Below are positions 13,578 to 49,711 of a stretch of DNA of 64,000 bases, in pieces. Source of the DNA: a phage; sequence record PZ445453.1; one strand, written 5' to 3'. The notes under the pieces are model-generated. The model was not told the origin of the DNA, searched no databases, and worked only from the letters and a program-made list of their open reading frames with translations. The number at the start of each line of letters is the position of its first letter. Within the stretch, counting starts at the first letter, position 1. The translations under genes and the position numbers were made by a program.

Positions 13578-14390
13578 TTATTTAGTCAAATGATCTTCTA
13601 TCATTTTTATGAAAGCAGGATTGCTAAAAGCATCTGCGGCCTTTTCTCGATAAACAAAGACTCCTCTATCTTCGTAAAGAAGAGTTTCTTCGTAATTAAT
13701 TCCTGGGTTAACAACGATCATTTTTGTACCCATATTAAGTGCAGGGAATAATTCCCAATTAAAATTGATAACTTGGTTTGAACATCCTACTACTACAACC
13801 AAATCTTGCATGGTTAAAGTATCAAACAAGTGAGCCATATCTGCATACAAAGGTGCAGCCTCACCAAAAAATACAACATTAGGCTTCACCCAGTTATAAT
13901 CATCTATGTTTATACTGCTGTAACCAATATCTACCAGTGTCTTGTAATCTCCAGGATGCATACGATAAACTATTTCAGGAAGATATCCGTGCACGTGAAT
14001 AACAGAATCCCTGTCTACACCTGCTCGCTCTAGTAGATCATCGACGTTTGTTGTCAAGTTTACTACTTGGTTAGGATATTCCTTAAACCACTTTGCTATT
14101 TGAATATGTGCAGCATTAGGTTGTACATCTTTAAGCTCAACACGTCTTTTGTTATAAAATTCGTGTGTTTTGGCATACAAATCCATACCGTTCTCGTCTA
14201 CACCACCAACCACGGGAAGATCTGGAGATGTTCTAACACGATAACCTGCTTGGAAAGCTCCAATATCGCAGACCTCTTGTAAATCATATTCCTCCCATAA
14301 GGCACGACCACTATCTGTGTCTGTTCGGAATGTTCGAATCCCACTGTCTGCACTTAAACCAGCGCCACTGACAAAAATTACTCTTCGCAT
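13578..14390 (-). CDS. Sir2-family (sirtuin-like) NAD+-dependent enzyme lacking Zn-ribbon
   Basis: GAGLSADSGIRTFR, TTNVDDL and VHG motifs; no CxxC...CxxC module. Confidence 0.8.
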   Translation of the reverse strand: MRRVIFVSGAGLSADSGIRTFRTDTDSGRALWEEYDLQEVCDIGAFQAGYRVRTSPDLPVVGGVDENGMDLYAKTHEFYNKRRVELKDVQPNAAHIQIAKWFKEYPNQVVNLTTNVDDLLERAGVDRDSVIHVHGYLPEIVYRMHPGDYKTLVDIGYSSINIDDYNWVKPNVVFFGEAAPLYADMAHLFDTLTMQDLVVVVGCSNQVINFNWELFPALNMGTKMIVVNPGINYEETLLYEDRGVFVYREKAADAFSNPAFIKMIEDHLTK

Positions 14391-15262: not shown

Positions 15263-15311
15263 TTCATCCCAATCTTTCCAAACGCATCTACAAAGTTAAA
15301 CTCTAAACCTT

Positions 15312-18602: not shown

Positions 18603-19265
18603 TTATTTAATATTCAATTTTGCACAAAGACGTTGTACCGCTTTGGCATCGAACAAACTCCCACGAATAGTTCTCTTTCCTGATTCATTCAGATGCTTTG
18701 CAATCGTCATATATGGCGTTTTACAAGCCCTGTATGCAACTAAAGAATCTTTTAAAGAAAGCGCAAACTCTTTTGAGCGTTTTGCTTCTTCCGTTTTCGT
18801 ATAATCTGTTCTTTTGTATTTAGGGTTTGCTGCACCAAGAAGCGTTCCCTTCGCTTTTGCTACCTTAAGGCTCTTCTTAACACGATCAGATATTGCACGA
18901 GCCTCTTCTTCTGCCAGAACTGCTAAAATATTTATTATCATATTTTCAGCGGAGGGCATCGTTGCTATTCGTACATTAATCATCTCTAACAAGGTTGCAA
19001 CAGAAGCTGTGTTACGTCCAAGACGGTCAACCTTAGCAACAACAAGTGTAGCACCTGTTTCTTTGCAAAGATTAACAGCTTTTACAAGCTCTCTACGTTG
19101 CTTCCAATCGCCTTTACCAGAATAAAACTCTGCAAAGCTACCTACAATAGTATAATTTTCTTGTGAATCCAGGAAGCGTTGGATATCTGCTTCCTGTGAT
19201 TCTATACCATACTGGTTGCCTTGTTGTTTCTTCTTAGAAAGTCGATGATACAGTACAAACTTCAT
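18603..19265 (-). CDS. serine recombinase (resolvase/invertase family)
   Basis: N-terminal YHRLS...Q with Ser nucleophile, VDRLGRN motif, C-terminal HTH-like segment. Confidence 0.75.
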   Translation of the reverse strand: MKFVLYHRLSKKKQQGNQYGIESQEADIQRFLDSQENYTIVGSFAEFYSGKGDWKQRRELVKAVNLCKETGATLVVAKVDRLGRNTASVATLLEMINVRIATMPSAENMIINILAVLAEEEARAISDRVKKSLKVAKAKGTLLGAANPKYKRTDYTKTEEAKRSKEFALSLKDSLVAYRACKTPYMTIAKHLNESGKRTIRGSLFDAKAVQRLCAKLNIK

Positions 19266-19538: not shown

Positions 19539-19777
19539 TCGTTGTTACGAGCATTTTCAAGAACCTTGACAACTTCTGCATACTCTACAGCTAAACCAGC
19601 ACACACTTCAGCTTGTTTTGCAATTGCTTGTTTAAAGAACATAGCGATTGCAACACTCTGTGTTGTGTGAATGTTATCTGCTTTAGTTGATACGTGAAGA
19701 TCAAAATCTTCTTCATCAAAGGTGAGTTCCATAGTAACAATAAATTTCTCGGTCATAAAAATGCTCCTCTTAAACAA
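19526..19777 (-). CDS. hypothetical protein
   Basis: 83-aa ORF. Confidence 0.45.
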   Translation of the reverse strand: MFKRSIFMTEKFIVTMELTFDEEDFDLHVSTKADNIHTTQSVAIAMFFKQAIAKQAEVCAGLAVEYAEVVKVLENARNNDWEE

Positions 19778-20279
19778 AATAGAAAGGTTGAGTTAAACCC
19801 AGCCTGTTTTTTGGGTCGTAGACGTACCAAGCATATGCTGTCTTATCAGTACCACCTGCAACAAAAGATGGTCGTTCAGAAAGAACAATCAAATTTGTTG
19901 GTGGATTCTGTTTATGGAATTCCCTTCGTTTAATAGACTCTAGGAACCCAAGACGCAACAAGTATATGCAAACGTCTGCTTCTTTTAAGCTCTTTTGCAA
20001 GAACTCAAGTGCAAGTCTGAATGGTGGATTTGTGATTATAATATCCGGCTTAGTATGCCATTCGTGGTTAAAATAATCCTTCCCTTCTTCTAACTCACAA
20101 TATTCTGATCCTTCTGGAAAATGTTGATAAATTGCAGCAGCAGCGCCTTTACACGGTTCTGCAAAAATAAAACCTTCTTCTTTAAGGTTATTAAAATCTA
20201 TTACACTAAATAATGCATTTATACATTTTTGTGGAGTAGGATAGTAATCAGTTGGTGGACGATCATACTTATTTGCCAC
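19770..20279 (-). CDS. putative DNA N6-adenine methyltransferase (small)
   Basis: IITNPPF (motif IV N/DPPF/Y) and EPCKGAAA (SAM-binding-like). Confidence 0.55.
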   Translation of the reverse strand: MANKYDRPPTDYYPTPQKCINALFSVIDFNNLKEEGFIFAEPCKGAAAAIYQHFPEGSEYCELEEGKDYFNHEWHTKPDIIITNPPFRLALEFLQKSLKEADVCIYLLRLGFLESIKRREFHKQNPPTNLIVLSERPSFVAGGTDKTAYAWYVYDPKNRLGLTQPFYFV

Positions 20280-20697
20280 TACTTAAAATCTCCTCTTTTG
20301 TGATTTCAGGGTTTTCTTCAAAAACCATAATATCTCTTAAGAACGTTAATTCTTCCATAGATACTGGTATTGTATCTTCTTCTGTTTTTCGTTTACATAA
20401 ATCGTCAAGAAAGTTTTTAATGTTTTCTGACACATCGTAAAATTTCAACAGTTGATAATCACAGGAGGAGATCCTATCTAGTTCTAACATCCTTTCTAAG
20501 ATATTTTCTGTGTTGCCGTACAACACACGAACTTCTCCGAAAGGGTTGACTAAATATTGTGAATTTCTAAACCATCCCTTTTTAGATACAGTGTAACGCT
20601 GTTCTGCTAAACTTTCAATAAAATTTTTAGCTCTTTTACAGTTTTGTTCTAAAGAGTAGTAGGCTTTTTCTACAAATATTACAGGTACTGGTAACAT
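20269..20697 (-). CDS. hypothetical protein
   Basis: 142-aa ORF; GGAGGA RBS. Confidence 0.5.
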   Translation of the reverse strand: MLPVPVIFVEKAYYSLEQNCKRAKNFIESLAEQRYTVSKKGWFRNSQYLVNPFGEVRVLYGNTENILERMLELDRISSCDYQLLKFYDVSENIKNFLDDLCKRKTEEDTIPVSMEELTFLRDIMVFEENPEITKEEILSSGK

Positions 20698-20737: not shown

Positions 20738-21391
20738 TTAATTATCAGAGGATACTTTATCAAGTTTTTCAGAGACTGTCAATACTTTTTCTTGTGATTC
20801 TTTCATTTCTGCTAAAATACTTTCAGCTTCATCACTATCAGGATCACCAGTCAACAGCATACTAATTAGTTGCTCCTTGCTGAAGTTGAGAATATCTTCC
20901 GCTGTTAACTCCAGTTGTTCTTCGATCTCTTCGATAAAAGTTTCACCGCCTGAAAAAGCATCTCGTAGTTTTGCAACTTCCATCGCTTCTTCTGGGGTTG
21001 CCCCAGCATCTAAAGCTGCTAAAGCAAAATCTGCCCCACTACCAACTGCATAATAATCTTCAGTTAAAGGATATGCTCGCGTTGGATTATTACCCTCGTG
21101 CATATAAATTTTACCGTCAGGGTGAACAACCAATGCCACAAACTCTTCATCTTCTTTATCAGGATCTGACTGGATCACCAAACCTGGGATTGTCTCTTGT
21201 GCTGCCTGGCATTGTAAGTTTTGTTCAAACCAAGAAAAGAAAGTCAGGATAGAAGATAGACGTCCTGCACCACCAACGAGGTAGTCCCCAATTTTACGCA
21301 CTTTCTTGAAATTTAAAGTGTCTACACGACTACCTACTGTTACTTTACCATCAGACAGAATTTTGTTACGTGTTGCAATAATTGTTGTCAT
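20738..21391 (-). CDS. hslV: HslV-like Ntn-hydrolase peptidase with C-terminal acidic extension
   Basis: M-TTIIA N-terminus (Thr nucleophile), KVRKIGDYLVGGAG, AVGSGADFALAAL align to HslV TTIVS / KVRRL...AGFAGG / AIGSGG blocks. Confidence 0.65.
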   Translation of the reverse strand: MTTIIATRNKILSDGKVTVGSRVDTLNFKKVRKIGDYLVGGAGRLSSILTFFSWFEQNLQCQAAQETIPGLVIQSDPDKEDEEFVALVVHPDGKIYMHEGNNPTRAYPLTEDYYAVGSGADFALAALDAGATPEEAMEVAKLRDAFSGGETFIEEIEEQLELTAEDILNFSKEQLISMLLTGDPDSDEAESILAEMKESQEKVLTVSEKLDKVSSDN

Positions 21392-23370: not shown

Positions 23371-23637
23371 TTACTCCGCAATCTGAGCCATGAATTCACG
23401 TAGTTCAGAAAAACCTCCTACGTGGGTTAGCTGTTCACCATCTTCCACAAAAATCTGAGGGAATGTGCGTGGTAGAACACCTGTTTTCTCTAAAACCAGA
23501 TTCTGAATCTGATCTAAAGAATAGTCTTCATCTAAGGTAAGGTATTTAAAATCCTGTTCACGCTGTTCTAGTAGAATCTTAGCGTTAGTGCAGAAAGGAC
23601 AATTTGGTTTACCGTAGATAATAAAATTCATTTTCAC
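23371..23637 (-). CDS. glutaredoxin/NrdH-like redoxin
   Basis: CPFC active site near N-terminus, ~88 aa. Confidence 0.75.
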   Translation of the reverse strand: MKMNFIIYGKPNCPFCTNAKILLEQREQDFKYLTLDEDYSLDQIQNLVLEKTGVLPRTFPQIFVEDGEQLTHVGGFSELREFMAQIAE

Positions 23638-24464
23638 TCCTTGTTTAAAAGTATAGTTAAAGTTCTTACAATACCGCTGTCAACACTTCGCGGATTTAAA
23701 GTAGGATCTGTTTTTAAATAAGATGTTGCTGGTCTGACTGCTTTGGAATTATAGGTTGAAGCAGACACAGGATTAACTGTAACAGATAAATCTATAACAA
23801 GAAATATCTTTCGTGCAAAATCATACCAAGAAATATAATCTGCACCTGCATAGTGTACAATTTTACTGTTTACACCATCTTTTACAAGTTTAAAAATTGT
23901 TTCTGCAAGATCAGGTGCATAAGTAGGACATGATAAATGATCACATACTACATTAAATTCTTTTTGACCACCGTTGTAGCGTTCCAACATAGTTTTCAAA
24001 AAGTTATGTCCAAATTCACTATAAACAGAAGCTGTTCTGATAATAAGTGCTGTAGGACAAACTGTTTGTACTAAAGTTTCACCTAATTGTTTACTGTAAC
24101 CGTAGATGTTCAAGGGGTTTGTTTTACTGTCTTCTGTGCCAGCAACATTCCCATCAAAAACATAGTCTGTTGAAATATGTACAAACTGTATCAGTAAATC
24201 ATTACATGCTTTGGCAATGTTTGTTGCACCGTATGCATTAACATTTATACAGGTGTTAACATCTTCTTCAGCTTTATCTACTGCCGTGTAAGCCGCACAA
24301 TTCACAACAACATCAGGCATATGCTGTACAAGACTATCCATAACATCTTTAAAGTTGGTAATGTCTACATCACTTGCTTCAATCAAAATAACATCTTCGG
24401 GCGCAACTTTTGCCAAAGACTGTCCTAATTGACCTTTTGAACCAAAGACTAAAAATTTTGTCAA
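23634..24464 (-). CDS. rmlD: dTDP-4-dehydrorhamnose reductase
   Basis: N-terminal FGSKGQLG Rossmann motif, YxxxK, ~276 aa, directly downstream of rmlC. Confidence 0.8.
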   Translation of the reverse strand: MTKFLVFGSKGQLGQSLAKVAPEDVILIEASDVDITNFKDVMDSLVQHMPDVVVNCAAYTAVDKAEEDVNTCINVNAYGATNIAKACNDLLIQFVHISTDYVFDGNVAGTEDSKTNPLNIYGYSKQLGETLVQTVCPTALIIRTASVYSEFGHNFLKTMLERYNGGQKEFNVVCDHLSCPTYAPDLAETIFKLVKDGVNSKIVHYAGADYISWYDFARKIFLVIDLSVTVNPVSASTYNSKAVRPATSYLKTDPTLNPRSVDSGIVRTLTILLNKE

Positions 24465-25015
24465 AATATGATCTCCTTTAGTGTTTTGGCTTCCTGATCT
24501 TTTTGTGACAAGATAGGTTTAAAATTAATATCATTAAAGATTAAATCAAAACCCCAATCTATATTGATATCTGGATCATTCCACGCAAGACTACACTCTG
24601 AAGTCGGATCGTAATATTCTGTACATTTGTATTCAAAATCAGCAATATCGCTAATCACAACAAAGCCATGAGCGAAACCAGGAGGAATCCAAAATTGTGT
24701 TTTATTCTTTTCAGATAAGAGAACACCTACCCATTCTCCAAATGTTGGACTACCAACCCTAATATCTACAGCAACATCATAAACTTCACCACGAACACAA
24801 CGTACTAACTTCCCTTGTGGGTTTTTCTTTTGAAAATGAAGCCCACGTAGAACTCCTCGGATAGAACGTGAATGGTTATCTTGGACAAAGTTTTGTTTAC
24901 CTATGTATTGATCATATAAAGCCTGATTAAAACTTTCTAAGAAAAAGCCACGTTCATCTCCATAAACGTCAGGTTGAATGATCAACAAGTCTTCGATTTT
25001 TGTTGCTTGAATCAT
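24461..25015 (-). CDS. rmlC: dTDP-4-dehydrorhamnose 3,5-epimerase
   Basis: RGLHFQ cupin motif, ~184 aa. Confidence 0.85.
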   Translation of the reverse strand: MIQATKIEDLLIIQPDVYGDERGFFLESFNQALYDQYIGKQNFVQDNHSRSIRGVLRGLHFQKKNPQGKLVRCVRGEVYDVAVDIRVGSPTFGEWVGVLLSEKNKTQFWIPPGFAHGFVVISDIADFEYKCTEYYDPTSECSLAWNDPDINIDWGFDLIFNDINFKPILSQKDQEAKTLKEIIF

Positions 25016-25026
25016 TTAATTCCCCT

Positions 25027-25896
25027 TTATTTTAATTTAAGTAAATACTTACCGTAGTCTGTTTTACTTAAAACCTCTCCAGAACTTTTTACAGAATCTA
25101 AAGTAATCCATTCATTTTTAAAAGCAATCTCTTCCAGGCATGCAACCTTCATACCTTGTTGCTTCTCTATTGCATGAACAAATTGAGATGCTTCCATAAG
25201 ACTTTCATGTGTTCCTGTATCCAACCAAGTGAAACCTCTTCCTAGTTTACAGACACGTAAAGTCTTTTCTTTCCGGTACATCTCATTTATATCTGTAATC
25301 TCTAACTCCCCTCTAGCAGAAGGTTTAACGCTTTTAGCTTTCTGTATAACAGAATTATCGTAAAAGTACAAGCCTGTAACTGCATAATTGCTTTTTGGTG
25401 TTTTTGGTTTTTCTTCAATACTCACCACTGTACCTTCAGAATCAAACTCAACAACACCAAATCTTTCAGGATCATTTACGTGATACCCAAAGATATTAGC
25501 TCCACCATTCTTTTCAATATGTTCTTTAGCAGAATCTAAAATGCTACCAAAACTCTGACCAAAGAATAAATTATCACCTAGCACAAGTGCTACAGAATCT
25601 TCACCAATAAAGTTCTCACCAATAATAAATGCTTCTGCTAAACCTTTTGGGCTATTCTGTACTGCATACTGTAGGGAAATACCAAAAGAAGAACCATCAC
25701 CTAGAAGATTTACAAAATTAATTTGATCTTCTGGTGTTGTAATTATTAGTATTTCCCTAATTCCAGAAAGCATTAGGACAGAGAGTGGATAATAAATCAT
25801 AGGCTTATCATAAATTGGTAATAGTTGTTTACTAATCCCTTTAGTAACTGGGTAAAGTCTTGTTCCACTACCACCTGCTAAGATAATACCTTTCAT
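25027..25896 (-). CDS. rmlA: glucose-1-phosphate thymidylyltransferase
   Basis: [19 protein letters not shown]-terminus, ~289 aa. Confidence 0.9.
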
Positions 25897-25904
25897 ACTC
25901 CTCC

Positions 25905-26894
25905 TTAAACTTTATTTTCCCACCACTCTTTGTTATCTACATACCAATCAATGGTTGAATAAAGTTTTTCTTCAAATGTGCCTTTAGCTTTCCACCCTAA
26001 TTCCTTTTCAATCTTATAAGGATTCACTTCGTATCTTAAATCATGTCCAGGTCTATCTGTAACCATCTCAATAAGGCTACAAGCATCTGTTTCAGATGGA
26101 TACACCGCATCCATATAATCACAAATCATATAGATTACATCAATATTAGTTCTAGGGTTTCTGCTCCCAATATTATATGTTTCTCCAGATTTGCCTTTAG
26201 TTACTACTAGGTGTAATGCTTCTGCGTGATCGTCAACGTATAACCAATCTCTTACTTGAAGACCATTGCCATAAACAGGGATTGGTTTATGCATCAAGAT
26301 ATTTGTTATCGTTTTAGGTATTAGTTTTTCTGGATGATGATATGCTCCAAAATTATTTGAACAATTTGTTATAACTGTCGGAATACCATAAGTACGATGC
26401 CACGCTCTTACCAAATGGTCGCTTGCAGCTTTAGATGCAGCATATGGACTACTTGGCTTATAAGGATTCTGTTCTGTAAACGGATAATCCCCTTCTTCCA
26501 TATCACCATACACTTCATCTGTTGAAATATGATGAAACATTTTAAGATTTGATTTATCTCCCATTAAACGAACAGCTTCTAGAAGATTAAATGTTCCAAC
26601 AATATTTGAATTTATAAAAACACTCGGTGATGCTATTGAATTATCTACGTGACTTTCTGCTGCAAGATGCATTATATAATCTGGATTAACATCTGCCACA
26701 ATCTTAGCAGTTAACTGAGCATTTGTCAAGTCAACACGACAAAACTTTACATTAGGTGTTTCTGATAAATTTCTAGGGTCTGAAGCGTAACCCCATTTAT
26801 CTATAACGTAAATATCATTCTTAGTGTTTTTAGCCAGGAAACGAACTACCGCACTTCCAATAAAGCCTAAACCACCTGTTACTAAGTATTTCAT
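25905..26894 (-). CDS. rmlB: dTDP-glucose 4,6-dehydratase
   Basis: [23 protein letters not shown] (YxxxK), RPGHDLRY. Confidence 0.9.
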
Positions 26895-35796: not shown

Positions 35797-36759
35797 TTAA
35801 ATTCCAATAACAGTGTTTACACGCTTCTCTTTGCTACGCAAATTAACACGTCCACGAGACAGGCTATTACATGATGTGCATCTTAGCACTTGGAATGTAC
35901 TAACCGCTGTTGTGTAAACCTTACCAGGAACAACTTCAAGGTGCTCTTTACCGCAACGAGGACAACGAAGTTTTTCATCGTCATAGAATGCAGATACGTT
36001 AGGATGCTGTGGAATCCACGCACGAAGTTTGATGTAAAGATCTCTAAGAGAAACAACATCACCATCGTTGTATGTTTGCATACGGAAGAAGGCGTGTCTG
36101 TCTCCTTCACAACATGCTTTCCACAAAGGAAAACCTTCATTGTCAAGTTTAAAGTTTTCTGTATCAAAATACAAACACATTTCTTTAAGCGCATTAGAAG
36201 GTAGTGCAAACTGCTTCTTAGCTGCCTTGAGTGTATCAATTACAACATAGTGTGATGGTGGCTCCATACCGTGAAAAGCAAAACGTTGGTTAATATAAGC
36301 CTTATCAAACTTAATACCGTTGTGTGCGATCACAATATCTGCATCGTCAAGCAAGTGCCACAGATCTTGACATAATTCCCAATCATCTGTATGATCTATG
36401 TCAAACAGAGGGTAATTGCTAAGGTTCTTACCTTCTACTTCTCCTGTTTCTAAATCAGCAGATGAATAGGAGAGCAAGTAACCTCGACGAATAACTTGTT
36501 CAGGTGCAATAAAGGCTTTGAAACGTGAGAAGCTATACACAATCTCCGGTGCTGTCTCTACGTCAATAATTTTAATTACTGGCCCACCTTTATCTTGCGG
36601 AGCACCGCGATGTGGTGAATTTACACGAGCTAAGTAATCATTTACTGTGCTCTTCTTACTAGAACTTCCCAACACCTCTTGTGCAATCTTACGCGAAGAA
36701 TAACCTTGTGCTTTCATAGATACAATCAAGGCTTTCTGTTCGTCTGTTAATTTACTCAA
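35797..36759 (-). CDS. DEDD-family 3'-5' exonuclease with N-terminal HTH and C-terminal Zn-ribbon
   Basis: IIDVETAP (Exo I), IAHNGIKFD (Exo II), CPRCGK...CTSCN. Confidence 0.55.
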   Translation of the reverse strand: MSKLTDEQKALIVSMKAQGYSSRKIAQEVLGSSSKKSTVNDYLARVNSPHRGAPQDKGGPVIKIIDVETAPEIVYSFSRFKAFIAPEQVIRRGYLLSYSSADLETGEVEGKNLSNYPLFDIDHTDDWELCQDLWHLLDDADIVIAHNGIKFDKAYINQRFAFHGMEPPSHYVVIDTLKAAKKQFALPSNALKEMCLYFDTENFKLDNEGFPLWKACCEGDRHAFFRMQTYNDGDVVSLRDLYIKLRAWIPQHPNVSAFYDDEKLRCPRCGKEHLEVVPGKVYTTAVSTFQVLRCTSCNSLSRGRVNLRSKEKRVNTVIGI

Positions 36760-36880
36760 TGTTCCTCCTGCTCTGAAATATATGCTTGTAGCATACTTTC
36801 AAAAGTTGTTTCATCATTCGCCCAACGTTTCATATATACCAACTGAAAAATTGTCTCTATCCATTCGTCAGTTGTCATCT

Positions 36881-37873
36881 CTACTTCTTCACCATCCCAA
36901 GAAGTAAATTTAACGCCATCTGGGAACCATCATAATACTGATCTTTAACTGTCTGAAAAAGTTCAGCCTGTGTTTTACATTTGGAAATAAGATTAAAGCA
37001 AGTAATATCTCCAAACTTAACATCGAAATCTTGGTAAGGTCGAATACTATCTGTCTTATCGCCCATTAGCATTTGATAAGCTAACCAGTAACTACCCCAG
37101 CCCTTAATTTCTTTTTTCTTACCTTTTTCTACGATCCAGATATCGCCGATAGATTCATCAATCAGAATAATACAAGGATTTTTATAAACACCATCCTCTT
37201 TATAAAAGTTAAAGAGTAAACTCGGTGTGTGCAAGCTATCTTTGTCGATAGATGCTACAATATGAGAAAACTTACCAGTTTCCTTGTAGGCTTTATACCC
37301 TGCATATCCATAGATTTCTAAAGCATCATCTGCCTCAATACCAGTAACAACGTCACCGTTATGTTTTTCAACTAGATAATCTTTAGTATCTGATAAATGG
37401 ATTGGTCTTAAATCTGATCGTTCTGATTTATATTCTTTTGGCATTTTGAAAGAATGCCGGAAGGTTTTTCCTACCCCGATGACACCGCAATACTTTTGAA
37501 GTTTTAGGTGATCCATCATCTGGGTTATTTTTGTCTTTGCAGCTTGAAACGTAAAAGAAATATTGTCTGGGACTATTTGAACGTCTTTTATTTCAAAATC
37601 TTCTCTAGAGAACAACTTCTTACCAGCAGCTTCGCGTTGCGCGTTAAGTGCTCCTAGCCATCCTCCAATATTTTTTGAAGATTTACCCCAAAAATCTGTT
37701 CTTGTTTCAAACTCTTTTACATTACCGGAAGCCTTGTGTACAGCGTGGATTTTTCTTTGTTCTAAAGCTGAAGACGCTTGGAACGCCACTTGATCGTAGT
37801 CTATTGCAAGAATTGTGTTCTCGTCAACATATTTGTGCAGGTCTTCCGGTTGGATTAAAATGTAGCCGCTAAT
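36881..37873 (-). CDS. T4-type RNase H / 5'-3' flap endonuclease, non-canonical start
   Basis: GIEADDALEI, SIDKD, GDKTDSIRP align to T4 RNase H; conserved N-terminal block ILAIDYDQVAFQ lies upstream of the GTG used by the ORF track, so CDS extended to an in-frame ATT. Confidence 0.65.
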   Translation of the reverse strand: MSGYILIQPEDLHKYVDENTILAIDYDQVAFQASSALEQRKIHAVHKASGNVKEFETRTDFWGKSSKNIGGWLGALNAQREAAGKKLFSREDFEIKDVQIVPDNISFTFQAAKTKITQMMDHLKLQKYCGVIGVGKTFRHSFKMPKEYKSERSDLRPIHLSDTKDYLVEKHNGDVVTGIEADDALEIYGYAGYKAYKETGKFSHIVASIDKDSLHTPSLLFNFYKEDGVYKNPCIILIDESIGDIWIVEKGKKKEIKGWGSYWLAYQMLMGDKTDSIRPYQDFDVKFGDITCFNLISKCKTQAELFQTVKDQYYDGSQMALNLLLGMVKK

Positions 37874-46941: not shown

Positions 46942-47835
46942 ATGAAAGTTAGTATTCTACATGGTGTTGACTGTTATGTTACTGATGTAGACGTTAAAGT
47001 GTTTACATTCTCTGGTGGAGAACAACATGTTCAATTAGATACGAACCTGTCAGGTTTCAATCATGCTACAGACAGAATCTTACTCACTTTAGAAGTAAGA
47101 TCTGCTAAAGACTTGATGACTTTGGTTATGACTAAGAATGCATTGGACAATATGCTGTATCATAAACCATATTGTGTTGATTTACTCATGTTGTATGTAC
47201 CGTATGCACGACAAGACAGAGTGTGTGAGCCTGGGGAAGCATTCGGAGTTAAAGCATTTGCTTCTATAATTAATTCATTAAATTTCTCACGTGTTATCGT
47301 TGCTGATCCACATAGTGATGTTACTCCAGCAGTGTTTGACAGACTTTGTGTAATACCTCAAGAAGAGATTGCTTACGAAACTTTAAAATGGAAGTTACGT
47401 ATGGAGAATTTTGCTCTTGTTAGCCCTGATGGTGGTGCTCTTAAGAAAATATTTAAATTATCTAAGAAAATGGCTTTAGATGTGTTCTGTGCAGAGAAGG
47501 TTAGAGATACCGCAACAGGTGCTATTGTTCGTACAGACATTTCTGTACAGGATTTCAATAAGCGTAACCTGATGATCGTAGATGATATCTGTGATGGTGG
47601 TAGAACTTTTATTGAGTTGGCTAAAGTGCTACGTGCTCGTAACGCAGGTAAGATTGAGTTGTATGTTACACACGGTATCTTTTCTAAAGGTCTTAAAGAG
47701 TTAAGTGAGCACTTTGACTGCATTCATTCTCTTAATGTGTGGGAAGATAACATCCAAGAAGATTCCGGTGTTCTTGTTAAGAATCAGTCAGATTTGCAGC
47801 AACAAATTGTATCTCCATACGTGTGGAATTTTTAA
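46942..47835 (+). CDS. prs: ribose-phosphate pyrophosphokinase (PRPP synthetase)
   Basis: MIVDDICDGGRTF PRPP-binding loop, ~297 aa. Confidence 0.8.
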   Translation: MKVSILHGVDCYVTDVDVKVFTFSGGEQHVQLDTNLSGFNHATDRILLTLEVRSAKDLMTLVMTKNALDNMLYHKPYCVDLLMLYVPYARQDRVCEPGEAFGVKAFASIINSLNFSRVIVADPHSDVTPAVFDRLCVIPQEEIAYETLKWKLRMENFALVSPDGGALKKIFKLSKKMALDVFCAEKVRDTATGAIVRTDISVQDFNKRNLMIVDDICDGGRTFIELAKVLRARNAGKIELYVTHGIFSKGLKELSEHFDCIHSLNVWEDNIQEDSGVLVKNQSDLQQQIVSPYVWNF

Positions 47836-47845
47836 ATAATAAGTG

Positions 47846-47874
47846 TTGACAATAGGGAGTATGCTTAGTAAGAT
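47846..47874 (+). promoter_or_regulatory. sigma70-like promoter TTGACA-N17-TAAGAT
   Basis: Read upstream of Nampt gene. Confidence 0.55.
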
Positions 47875-47906
47875 ACTCCCACACTAACAAACAAGGAGAC
47901 ATAACT

Positions 47907-49640
47907 ATGAATATTTTTGCACCTTTTGCTACTGATTGGTATAAACCTGGTCACAAGCAGATGTACAACCAAAATACAAAACTCATTTTCTCTAATTTAA
48001 CTCCTCGTAATGATAAAAACTTTGCACACTATGCAGATCGTGAAGCACGTGGTGTCATTGTTTTAGGTATTCGTCGAGCAGTAACCGATGCTCTTGTAAC
48101 TATGTGGGACGGCTTCTTTAAAATGTCTCGTAGTGCAGCAGTAAATAAATTTTATCGTATGTCTAAGAATGCATTAGGTGCTTCTGCTCCTTCTGCTGAG
48201 TGTTGGGGTGAATTGCACGATTTAGGTTATCTTCCGCTGGAAGTTCGATCTCTGCCGGAAGGTGTTTTGTGTCCTATTGGTGTTCCTGTGTTTACTGTGC
48301 ATAATACTTTAGAAAAATTCTTTTGGTTAACTAACTATGTGGAAACACTGTTGTCAGATGAAACTTGGAAGACAATGACTAATGCCACAGCAGCTTTTCA
48401 GTATAAGCGTATCGCTATGGCATATGCGATGGCAACGTGTGATAATATTGATCACGTTAACTTCCAGTGTCATGATTTTAGCCTACGTGGTTTAAGCAAT
48501 ATCGAAGATGGTTATAAGAGTGGTATCGCTCATTTGGCATCTTTCACAGGAACAGATAATATTCTGGCTATTGAAACTGTGCATGATTATTATGGTATTG
48601 ATTATGATCAGTTTGTTGCAGGTTCTATTCCGGCAACAGAACATTCAGTAGCAACAACTAACATTGGAGCTATTGTTGAAGATCTGAAGAAACATTTCCC
48701 ACATCTTAAAGATGATGTAGATGGGCTTCGTTATGTAGCAGAAAAAGAGTTTCTTCGTCGTTATATCGAAGAAATTGTTCCAGAAGGTTTTTGTTCATAT
48801 GTAGCAGACTCTTATGACTATTGGGCTGTATTGACTCGCATTCTGGTAGAATTGAAAGATTCCATTATGTCACGAAATGGTCGTCTTGTTATTCGTCCAG
48901 ATTCAGGAGATCCGGTTAAAGTTGTTGCAGGATACAATGTTGAATCTTTTGATAACTATGAAGACCTCTTAAATAATGGTATTGCGACAGCCACTGAAGT
49001 AGTTCATTTGGCTGATGTTAATAAGTATTACAATGTTCTTCAGGATTGCAGCGTTGCTGATTGTATTGACGAAACTTATGAGATTCCTTATTGTGAAGCA
49101 GTAGGTTCTATTCAAATCCTTTGGGAAGTGTTTGGTGGTACTATCAACCGAAAAGGCTACAAGGTTCTTGATCAGCATATCGGTATGATTTATGGCGATT
49201 CTATTACTGTTGAACGAGAACACGAAATCTTACGCCGACTGAAGAAGAAAGGTTTTGCAGCTTCCAATATTGTATTTGGTGTTGGTAGTTATACTTATCA
49301 GTTCAATACACGAGATACTTTTGGTTTTGCTGTTAAAGCAACAGGTAGTATTATCGGTGAACACGAGATTTTGGTAAGTAAAGAGCCTAAAACTGATCCT
49401 GGTAAACGCTCTGCAAAAGGTTTTATTAAGGTTGTTAAGGATGCCAATGGTAATCTCTCTCTTGTAGATAATCTTTCTTTTAAAGATATCCAGGATGAAG
49501 ACAATGAATTACAAGTTATCTTCAAGGATGGTAAGGTTATTATACCACAAGTAGAAGGACGTGATGAAACATTCACTGATATCCGCAACCGTGTTGACGT
49601 AGAGGTTCTTCGTACTATGGGAACCATCCAGGTTGACTAA
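47907..49640 (+). CDS. nadV: nicotinamide phosphoribosyltransferase (Nampt)
   Basis: N-terminal TDWYKPGHKQMY resembles Nampt DSYKVTHYKQYP; SFTGTDN block. Confidence 0.88.
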   Translation: MNIFAPFATDWYKPGHKQMYNQNTKLIFSNLTPRNDKNFAHYADREARGVIVLGIRRAVTDALVTMWDGFFKMSRSAAVNKFYRMSKNALGASAPSAECWGELHDLGYLPLEVRSLPEGVLCPIGVPVFTVHNTLEKFFWLTNYVETLLSDETWKTMTNATAAFQYKRIAMAYAMATCDNIDHVNFQCHDFSLRGLSNIEDGYKSGIAHLASFTGTDNILAIETVHDYYGIDYDQFVAGSIPATEHSVATTNIGAIVEDLKKHFPHLKDDVDGLRYVAEKEFLRRYIEEIVPEGFCSYVADSYDYWAVLTRILVELKDSIMSRNGRLVIRPDSGDPVKVVAGYNVESFDNYEDLLNNGIATATEVVHLADVNKYYNVLQDCSVADCIDETYEIPYCEAVGSIQILWEVFGGTINRKGYKVLDQHIGMIYGDSITVEREHEILRRLKKKGFAASNIVFGVGSYTYQFNTRDTFGFAVKATGSIIGEHEILVSKEPKTDPGKRSAKGFIKVVKDANGNLSLVDNLSFKDIQDEDNELQVIFKDGKVIIPQVEGRDETFTDIRNRVDVEVLRTMGTIQVD

Positions 49641-49711
49641 ATAAAAACTTCGTGATAAGATTAAGGTAAGGAGAGCCTGCAACTGCCCTGGATGGGCTTC
49701 ACGAAGGATTT

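What the first reader, a model, noticed from the sequence alone, without database searches (positions are those of the whole stretch)
19770..20279. Compact orphan DNA methyltransferase
A 169-aa ORF has an NPPF catalytic motif (IITNPPF) and a glycine-rich SAM-binding-like segment with no restriction partner. It may be an anti-restriction adenine methylase, though it is short for a full methyltransferase.
Basis: partly seen in the sequence, partly recalled or inferred. Interest (0 to 1): 0.35.

Follow-up and report, generated by a model that had tools for sequence, protein, structure and literature searches.

The report
Compact phage Dam-like adenine methyltransferase
This is a real, already-annotated small phage DNA adenine methyltransferase whose close relative in another coliphage was shown in 2025 to methylate GATC sites, so it is an ordinary member of a known enzyme family and not a new anti-restriction device.

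Summary
Window 19770-20279 (-) is a 169-aa ORF with a GTG start, a GAGGAG ribosome-binding site, the motif IITNPPF and a motif-I-like EPCKGAAAA loop.

The window is Escherichia phage JohannJBalmer (Bas62, phi92-like). This gene is already annotated there as bas62_0197, 'putative N6 adenine methyltransferase'. It matches PHROG 799 ('DNA methyltransferase', E=1.7e-56) but passes no Pfam or NCBIfam threshold.

The ~170-aa size is normal for the family, which has about 14,500 cluster representatives, nearly all of the best hits 130-260 aa. The AlphaFold model (pLDDT 90) is a complete Rossmann methyltransferase core with no target-recognition domain. Its nearest solved folds are M.TaqI, CamA and HsdM.

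The 47%-identical ortholog in phage Bas51 (bas51_0176) was shown experimentally to make G-m6A-TC on phage DNA: 1405 methylated GATC sites in wild type against 35 in a T83P mutant. It also triggers retrons. The mutated residues are conserved here.

The family is a remote sister of HP1-Dam-like 'mini-Dam' proteins (Pfam PF05869; hhalign 93%). No restriction partner is present, so it is an orphan.

A broad anti-restriction role is not supported, because phi92-like phages are reported as exceptionally RM-sensitive. GATC specificity for this particular protein is inferred, not shown.

Novelty is low.

The parts
19770..20279 (-). CDS of the compact orphan N6-adenine DNA methyltransferase (169 aa; = bas62_0197 of phage JohannJBalmer; 99.4% identical to phi92 gp056)
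   Evidence: ORF list and sequence; GenBank annotation; PHROG 799 E=1.7e-56; AF2 model pLDDT 90.3
20290..20295 (-). Shine-Dalgarno GAGGAG, 10 nt upstream of the GTG start
   Evidence: Reverse-complement read of 20261-20330. The phi92 record annotates an AGGAG RBS at the equivalent place
20232..20249 (-). Motif X-like DYYPTP (residues 11-16). T15 is invariant and Y13 and P16 are >=90% conserved. It aligns with HsdM 'YFTP' and HP1-Dam 'DLWATP'
   Evidence: Alignment A1; profile hit to StySJI HsdM; hhalign
20127..20165 (-). Motif I-like AdoMet-binding loop FAEPCKGAAAAIY (residues 39-51); family consensus is EPCRGxGAIY
   Evidence: Alignment A1 with E41/P42/C43/G45 >=90% conserved; beta-strand 39-41 in the model
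20019..20045 (-). Motif IV catalytic segment D79-IIITNPPF (residues 79-87). D79 and T83 correspond to the loss-of-function escape mutations D79G and T83P in the Bas51 ortholog
   Evidence: paper PMC12548924
20073..20078 (-). D68-Y69 (family 'DY' motif). D68 is equivalent to Bas51 D69, the site of escape mutation D69G
19836..19874 (-). Motif VIII-like RPSF followed by the loop VAGGTDKTA (residues 136-148). R136, P137, F139 and D145 are invariant. pLDDT is lower here, and some relatives carry a Cys4 insertion at this place. Inferred to be a DNA-contact loop
   Evidence: Alignment A1; pLDDT profile. The DNA-contact role is inference
20269..20697 (-). Upstream 142-aa ORF (bas62_0198, phrog_15078, unknown function). 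Its stop overlaps the methyltransferase start by 11 nt. It is clade-specific and absent at this position in Vequintavirus, so it is not an obligatory partner

Best explanation
The ORF encodes an active, stand-alone (orphan) SAM-dependent DNA N6-adenine methyltransferase of a compact phage family of about 170 aa (PHROG 799).

Anatomy: the protein is essentially a bare Rossmann-fold catalytic core. Its motifs run in gamma-like order: motif X DYYPTP, motif I EPCKG, motif IV NPPF, motif VIII RPSF. There is no separate target-recognition domain.

Timing and action (inferred): the gene sits in the leftward early/DNA-metabolism gene block (PhoH, protease, ribonucleotide reductase, thymidylate synthase and so on). 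It is therefore expected to be made during infection and to methylate replicating phage DNA.

Specificity (inferred): by orthology with phage Bas51's enzyme, the most likely product is G-m6A-TC, that is, Dam-like methylation. The phage would supply this itself because host Dam does not keep up with phage DNA synthesis.

Likely consequences (inferred): protection only against GATC-directed, m6A-sensitive nucleases, and avoidance of the under-methylated state of phage DNA. The cost is exposure to methylation-sensing defences such as retrons whose msDNA carries GATC, and Dam-dependent nucleases.

What is shown: the ORF, its motifs, the fold, homology to the Bas51 enzyme, and orphan status.
For: - PHROG 799 'DNA methyltransferase', E=1.7e-56.
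- 237 word-index homologs and 14,530 exhaustive-search representatives; nearly all of the best 150 are 130-260 aa.
- Conserved motifs X, I, IV and VIII in 51 diverse homologs.
- AF2 model with pLDDT 90.3 and pTM 0.87, showing a full 7-strand class-I MTase core.
- Foldseek top PDB hits are N6-adenine DNA MTases: M.TaqI, CamA, StySJI and EcoKI HsdM, PacII.
- Bas51 = phage WalterGehring. Its bas51_0176 (177 aa) is 47% identical over 161 residues, E=8e-46, and carries D69, D79 and T83 exactly as in the paper.
- PMC12548924: native nanopore sequencing gave 1405 m6A GATC sites in wild type against 35 in T83P. The enzyme expressed alone triggers Retron-Squ1 and is toxic in E. coli.
- Synteny PhoH - protease - MTase is shared by Bas51, phi92 and this window.
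- The remote sister family PF05869, founded on the HP1 'Dam' enzyme, has the same TRD-less layout: hhalign 93%, E=3.4e-7.
- GATC is not avoided in the window (253 observed, 273 expected), whereas GGCC, CATG, CCGG and CTAG are at 0.34-0.61 of expectation.
- RM sensitivity of phi92-like phages to EcoRI, EcoRV, EcoKI, EcoP1 and similar systems fits a GATC-only modification.
Against: - No methylation data exist for this phage or any phi92-clade phage in the literature I could search.
- 47% identity does not guarantee the same target sequence in DNA methyltransferases.
- There is no hit above threshold in Pfam or NCBIfam and no sequence hit in PDB.
- Structural matches are only moderate (TM 0.5-0.6) and include RNA methyltransferases such as PH1948, Dim1/KsgA, Erm and TrmM.
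- How a protein without a recognition domain reads GATC is unknown.
- GATC non-avoidance is weak evidence, because E. coli Dam also methylates GATC.
Confidence: 0.7

Rival explanations
1. It has the same chemistry (DNA N6-adenine methylation), but the phi92-clade enzyme has a different or relaxed sequence specificity: not GATC, or GATC plus near-cognate sites.
For: Only 47% identity to the characterized enzyme. The motif I loop and N-terminus differ between the clades. In Bas51, 'other' m6A sites also fell from 576 to 349 in the mutant, and the enzyme is toxic when expressed in E. coli, which hints at off-target activity. A TRD-less enzyme might be expected to be less stringent.
Against: The loops most likely to touch DNA are well conserved between the two clades: RPSF..G.TD..AYA and D.KNRL.L. 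The gene is syntenic. Non-specific adenine methylation would protect against EcoRI, EcoRV and EcoKI, yet these phages are highly RM-sensitive.
Confidence: 0.2
2. It is a dedicated broad anti-restriction methylase: the enzyme modifies many adenines so that phage DNA escapes host restriction systems generally.
For: It is an orphan phage methyltransferase with no cognate nuclease. Genome-announcement papers assume such a role for Justusliebigvirus methyltransferases.
Against: [quoted passage not shown] The ortholog's product is GATC-restricted. The strong avoidance of several 4-bp palindromes in the window suggests sites are escaped by depletion, not by modification.
Confidence: 0.05
3. It is an RNA (tRNA/rRNA m6A or m2G) or protein methyltransferase, not a DNA enzyme.
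For: The NPPF/NPPY motif also occurs in RsmC/RsmD/HemK-type enzymes. There is a sub-threshold Pfam MTS hit. The Foldseek list includes PH1948, Dim1/KsgA, Erm and TrmM, and the PDB sequence-profile search lists METTL5. tRNA-synthetase-like genes lie nearby.
Against: The ortholog's loss abolishes GATC DNA methylation in vivo. The best fold and profile matches are DNA N6-adenine MTases. The HP1-Dam family relationship also points to DNA. All RNA-MTase matches are motif-level or generic Rossmann similarity.
Confidence: 0.03
4. It is a degenerate, truncated remnant of a larger methyltransferase and has no activity.
For: It is short (169 aa), has no recognition domain, and the second glycine of GxG is replaced by alanine in this clade.
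Against: The length is the family norm. All catalytic motifs are invariant. The confident model is a complete fold. Protein identity is >=98% across the 56 phi92-like records. The 177-aa ortholog is active.
Confidence: 0.02

Closest known systems
Bas51 (Escherichia phage WalterGehring) bas51_0176 'N6 adenine methyltransferase', the retron-Asa1/Squ1 trigger (PMC12548924)
   Same: Same PHROG family and size (177 vs 169 aa). 47% identity, E=8e-46. Same motifs, and the functionally tested residues D69, D79 and T83 are conserved. Same PhoH-protease-MTase synteny. Orphan.
   Different: NPPF here against NPPY. The motif I loop is KGAAAA here against RNSASG. The N-terminus differs. An extra 142-aa ORF lies between the protease and the MTase here. 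The target sequence and retron triggering have not been tested for this protein.
HP1 Dam-like 'mini-Dam' phage methyltransferases (Pfam PF05869 Dam)
   Same: About 170 aa with no target-recognition domain. Co-linear DxW/YxTP, NPPY/F and R-x-x-F motifs. Orphan genes in phage early/replication modules. hhalign probability 93%, E=3.4e-7.
   Different: Does not reach the Pfam threshold: no PF05869 hit for this protein, and 19.2 bits against a cut-off of 28.1 for the Bas51 ortholog. Only the N-terminal ~87 columns align. The motif I region differs (EPCxGxG against DLDxCA). That HP1 Dam methylates GATC rests on the titles of cited papers and on my memory, not on a test here.
Gamma-class N6-adenine DNA methyltransferases (M.TaqI, CamA, type I HsdM; Pfam N6_Mtase, Eco57I, TaqI-like)
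   Same: Motif order X-I-IV-VIII, the NPPF/Y catalytic loop and the Rossmann fold. These are the best PDB fold matches (2np6, 7lni, 2okc, 2ar0) and the best PDB profile hit (HsdM StySJI).
   Different: Lacks their C-terminal TRD or helical domains and any HsdS partner. 10-15% identity and TM only 0.5-0.6. No Pfam threshold is passed.
E. coli Dam / T4 Dam (alpha-class, Pfam MethyltransfD12)
   Same: The predicted product (G-m6A-TC) and orphan status. It is a functional analogue.
   Different: No detectable sequence relationship. Alpha-class enzymes are about 260-280 aa with a TRD inserted between motifs and use DPPY (established knowledge). The shared specificity is convergent, not a sign of family membership.

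Membership tests
PHROG 799 (phage 'DNA methyltransferase') | Significant match to the family HMM | tested here: met
   E=1.7e-56, 193 bits, residues 2-163. The V. cholerae prophage relative also matches, E=6e-56.
Amino (N6-adenine/N4-cytosine) DNA methyltransferases | Catalytic motif IV (D/N/S)PP(Y/F/W) | tested here: met
   N84-P85-P86-F87. N, P and P are invariant in 51 homologs.
Amino (N6-adenine/N4-cytosine) DNA methyltransferases | AdoMet-binding motif I on a class-I Rossmann fold | tested here: met
   EPCKG loop after beta1. AF2 model pLDDT 90.3 with a seven-strand core. Foldseek probability is 1.00 to SAM-MTases.
Gamma-class N6-adenine MTases (M.TaqI / HsdM type) | Linear order: motif X, motif I, motif IV, motif VIII | tested here: met
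   DYYPTP (11-16), EPCKG (41-45), NPPF (84-87), RPSF (136-139). Co-linear alignment to StySJI HsdM.
Gamma-class N6-adenine MTases (M.TaqI / HsdM type) | C-terminal target-recognition domain or a separate specificity subunit | tested here: not met
   The protein ends 30 residues after motif VIII. No extra domain appears in the model. No HsdS-like neighbour.
Gamma-class N6-adenine MTases (M.TaqI / HsdM type) | Passing a curated Pfam/NCBIfam model (N6_Mtase, Eco57I, EcoRI_methylase etc.) | tested here: not met
   Only EcoRI_methylase at 13.4 bits (cut-off 26.4) and MTS at 11.2 bits (cut-off 23). NCBIfam gave nothing.
Pfam PF05869 Dam (HP1-Dam-like mini methyltransferases) | Score above the Pfam gathering threshold | tested here: not met
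   No PF05869 hit for this protein. The Bas51 ortholog scores 19.2 bits against 28.1. The remote relationship is supported by hhalign at 93%, E=3.4e-7.
Bas51-type GATC-specific phage methyltransferase | Orthology (sequence, conserved functional residues, synteny) | tested here: met
   47% identity, E=8e-46. D68, D79 and T83 are conserved. PhoH-protease-MTase gene order is shared.
Bas51-type GATC-specific phage methyltransferase | m6A formed at GATC on phage DNA | not testable with these tools
   Needs methylation-aware sequencing or DpnI/MboI digests. The only indirect evidence is that GATC is not depleted (observed/expected 0.93).
Type II restriction-modification system | Adjacent cognate restriction endonuclease | tested here: not met
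   The neighbours are PHROGs of unknown function, an HslV-like peptidase and a DNA invertase. No nuclease is annotated in window 1-50000. PADLOC gives only a weak MTase_II match, E=2.3e-4.
E. coli/T4 Dam (alpha-class, MethyltransfD12) | Sequence match to the family model | tested here: not met
   No hit at E<=10 in Pfam. No PDB sequence hit.

The most novel reading that the evidence does not exclude
The enzyme may be kept by these RM-sensitive phages for a job other than defence evasion. Candidates are keeping fast-replicating phage DNA fully GATC-methylated to escape MutH/SeqA-type host processes, or marking DNA for replication or packaging. As a 169-aa protein without a recognition domain, it would then be one of the smallest autonomous sequence-specific DNA methyltransferases, reading GATC only through loops of the catalytic core or as a dimer. 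No solved structure shows such a recognition mode.
Probability: 0.3. Interest if true: 0.4.

Novelty: already known. Interest (0 to 1): 0.15.

Why it matters
The practical value is modest. If this enzyme makes G-m6A-TC like its Bas51 ortholog, phi92-like therapeutic and model phages carry Dam-type methylation of their own making. That predicts sensitivity to methylation-sensing defences (retrons with GATC in their msDNA, DpnI-like nucleases) and resistance to MboI/DpnII-type restriction. It also explains why the gene gives no protection in standard RM panels. The open mechanistic question is how a ~170-aa core without a recognition domain achieves sequence specificity. That interests methyltransferase specialists, but it applies to the whole family and is not specific to this locus.

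Tried and rejected
- Pfam and NCBIfam scans gave no family above threshold.
- A PDB sequence search with the single protein found nothing. The profile search gave only marginal motif-level hits.
- Literature searches for direct methylome or digest data on phi92, Justusliebigvirus or Phapecoctavirus found none.
- The rV5 genome paper does not mention methylation, and the phi92 genome paper is not held.
- The BME3 paper's statement of 'four methyltransferase CDSs' could not be verified. It does not apply to this window, where only one amino-MTase motif ORF exists.
- I considered the overlapping upstream 142-aa ORF as a specificity partner and rejected it. It is a clade-restricted unknown (phrog_15078) and is absent at this position in Bas51, where the enzyme works when expressed alone.
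- I considered the larger phi92 methyltransferase gp043 as a second enzyme here. It is a C5-cytosine MTase lying in a 2.1-kb segment that this phage lacks.
- The promoter and terminator scan was at chance level and uninformative.
- GATC counts are only weakly informative, because host Dam targets the same site.

Full report
**Observation**

Window 19770-20279 on the minus strand is an ORF of 169 codons starting with GTG. A GAGGAG Shine-Dalgarno lies 10 nt upstream, and the start overlaps the stop of the preceding ORF by 11 nt. The motif IITNPPF is at residues 81-87.

It contains one glycine and four alanines, but it aligns with the family's EPCxGxG motif I. It is the only ORF of 80 aa or more, in any frame of the 64-kb window, that has a (D/N/S)PP(Y/F/W/H) motif.

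**Source and existing annotation**

The window is Escherichia phage JohannJBalmer (Bas62, MZ501084.1; Stephanstirmvirinae, Justusliebigvirus, phi92-like). The first 50 kb differ from that record by one 1-nt deletion.

The ORF is bas62_0197, 'putative N6 adenine methyltransferase'. It is 99.4% identical to phi92 gp056, 'DNA methyltransferase'. The gene and its general function are therefore already in the public record.

**Family**

- PHROG 799 ('DNA methyltransferase') matches at E=1.7e-56.
- Pfam gives only sub-threshold, motif-level hits (EcoRI_methylase 13.4 bits, MTS 11.2 bits). NCBIfam gives none. PADLOC gives only a weak type II MTase match.
- The word-index search returned 237 homologs. 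The best 120 were almost all 160-200 aa, with a few shorter fragments, and none had a precomputed Pfam domain.
- An exhaustive profile search returned 14,530 cluster representatives at E<=1e-3 (7,496 at E<=1e-10). Nearly all of the best 150 are 130-260 aa. The small size is the family norm, not a truncation.
- Across 51 diverse members the conserved features are DxYPTP (motif X-like), EPCxGxG (motif I), an acidic residue (E62), D68-Y69, D79-x-IITNPPF (motif IV), R118, R136-P-S-F (motif VIII-like), D145 and Y149-A-W.
- Some members carry a Cys4 insertion between RPSF and GTD.

**Structure**

AlphaFold2 with this alignment gives a confident model (mean pLDDT 90.3, pTM 0.87). It has a complete class-I methyltransferase sheet and no additional domain. 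The only weaker regions are the first ~10 residues and the 141-150 loop.

Foldseek against PDB places it nearest to N6-adenine DNA methyltransferases of the gamma type: M.TaqI, CamA, StySJI and EcoKI HsdM, and PacII. Generic small Rossmann RNA methyltransferases follow. TM scores are only 0.5-0.6 and identity is 10-18% among the significant matches. The profile search of PDB sequences also ranks an HsdM first, aligning motif X, motif I and motif IV co-linearly.

The protein therefore has gamma-class motif order but lacks the C-terminal target-recognition domain that defines those enzymes.

**Experimental anchor**

A 2025 PLoS Biology paper (PMC12548924) reports several results for the 'N6 adenine methyltransferase' of BASEL phage Bas51:
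- Escape mutants from Retron-Asa1 and Retron-Squ1 map to this gene (D69G, D79G, T83P).
- Native nanopore sequencing finds m6A at GATC on the phage genome.
- The T83P mutant loses it: 1405 against 35 GATC sites. GTAC calls are unchanged (509 against 511), and 'other' sites fall from 576 to 349.
- The enzyme expressed alone is toxic in E. coli and triggers Retron-Squ1 in Serratia.

I identified Bas51 as phage WalterGehring. Its gene bas51_0176 (177 aa) has D69, D79 and T83 exactly as published, and the neighbouring 'glycosidase' has R87, matching the paper's R87* mutation.

That protein is 47% identical to the window ORF over 161 residues (E=8e-46). The three functionally tested residues correspond to D68, D79 and T83 here. 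The gene order PhoH - protease - methyltransferase is shared.

**Wider relationship**

The 173-aa 'Dam' of Haemophilus phage HP1 is the archetype of Pfam PF05869 (E=7e-75). A profile-profile comparison of our family with an alignment of HP1-Dam homologs gives 93% probability and E=3.4e-7 over 87 co-linear columns. DxWxTP aligns with DxYPTP and NPPY with NPPF.

The family is thus a remote sister of the 'mini-Dam' group, but it does not meet that Pfam model's threshold.

A 43%-identical relative in a Vibrio cholerae genome lies in a lambdoid prophage early region, between CII-like and O-like replication genes. It also has no nuclease partner.

**Orphan status and biological role**

- The immediate neighbours are clade-specific proteins of unknown function, an HslV-like peptidase and a DNA invertase.
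- No nuclease or second methyltransferase is annotated in window 1-50000.
- phi92's additional C5-cytosine methyltransferase gp043 lies in a 2.1-kb segment that this phage lacks.
- The BASEL paper states that Vequintavirinae and phi92-like relatives are 'exceptionally susceptible' to RM systems and seem to lack effective protection. That argues against a broad anti-restriction function and fits a GATC-only modification.
- In the window GATC is not avoided (253 observed, 273 expected), while GGCC, CATG, CCGG and CTAG are at 0.34-0.61 of expectation. This is consistent with the model but only weakly informative.

**Conclusion**

The best explanation is an orphan, TRD-less N6-adenine DNA methyltransferase that most likely makes Dam-type G-m6A-TC on replicating phage DNA.

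Shown: the ORF, motifs, fold, family, orthology to a characterized GATC enzyme, and absence of a partner.

Inferred: GATC specificity for this particular protein, the timing of expression, and the biological role. Candidate roles are protection from GATC-directed m6A-sensitive nucleases and avoidance of under-methylated DNA, at the cost of triggering methylation-sensing retrons.

The main rival is the same chemistry with a different or relaxed specificity. RNA-methyltransferase, pseudo-enzyme and broad anti-restriction readings are unlikely.

Novelty is low. The gene is already annotated as such, and a close ortholog has been characterized.

Noticed in passing
window ~15263-15287: Compared with phage phi92, a ~2.1-kb segment is absent here. 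It carries part of gp041, gp042, the 329-aa C5-cytosine DNA methyltransferase gp043 (PCQ and ENV motifs), gp044 and part of gp045. The larger methyltransferase is therefore accessory within the genus, while the compact one is conserved.
   Followed up: partly
whole window: Several 4-bp palindromes are strongly under-represented against a second-order Markov expectation: GGCC 0.34, CATG 0.48, CCGG 0.53, CTAG 0.61, CGCG 0.68, GTAC 0.72. GATC, GCGC, TGCA and ATAT are near 1. This suggests restriction-site avoidance for some sites.
   Followed up: no
Bas51 (phage WalterGehring) genome; paper PMC12548924, S4 Table: About 510 m6A calls at GTAC in Bas51 do not depend on the compact methyltransferase (509 in wild type, 511 in T83P). 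This implies a second adenine methyltransferase activity or a base-caller artefact, and is unexplained.
   Followed up: no
window 20738-21391 (-) vs L007:1900-2949: At the same syntenic position between PhoH and the methyltransferase, this phage encodes an HslV/proteasome-like peptidase, whereas Vequintavirus phages encode a ClpP-like protease.
   Followed up: no
window 23634-26894 (-): A full dTDP-rhamnose-type pathway is annotated: thymidylyltransferase, 4,6-dehydratase, 3,5-epimerase and reductase. The BASEL paper mentions it as a putative dTDP glycosylation machinery that nevertheless gives no RM protection.
   Followed up: no
window ~36931, inside the 'putative 5'-exonuclease' gene (36756-37790, -): The window differs from GenBank MZ501084.1 by a single 1-nt deletion (CCATTCAT becomes CCATCAT), which would shift the frame of that gene. 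It could be a sequencing or version difference, or a real variant.
   Followed up: partly
alignment A1 (e.g. P0057, P0061, P0073, P0077, P0094, P0100, P0106): A subgroup of the family carries a ~25-30-residue insertion with four cysteines (CG..Y...C.CGG, zinc-ribbon-like) between motif VIII (RPxF) and the GTD loop. This is the place where a recognition element would be expected.
   Followed up: no
phage database records MG0656xx ('Campylobacter phage' A150, C12, D1 and others); plasmid record CP057073.1: About 20 records labelled Campylobacter phages hit this gene at phi92-like (about 99% protein identity) or rV5-like (94.8-97.6% nucleotide identity to the Vequintavirus gene) levels. A 137.6-kb 'E. 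coli plasmid' carries the Vequintavirus-type methyltransferase. These are probably mislabelled or contaminant coliphage genomes.
   Followed up: no
window 18603-19265 (-): A serine recombinase / DNA invertase (Pfam Resolvase, E=8e-22) lies three genes downstream of the methyltransferase in this virulent myovirus. Its target is unknown.
   Followed up: no
window 13578-14390 (-) and 46943-49641 (+): A Sir2-family protein and an NAD-salvage pair (PRPP synthetase, nicotinamide phosphoribosyltransferase) are annotated in the same window. They may be relevant to NAD-depleting host defences.
   Followed up: no
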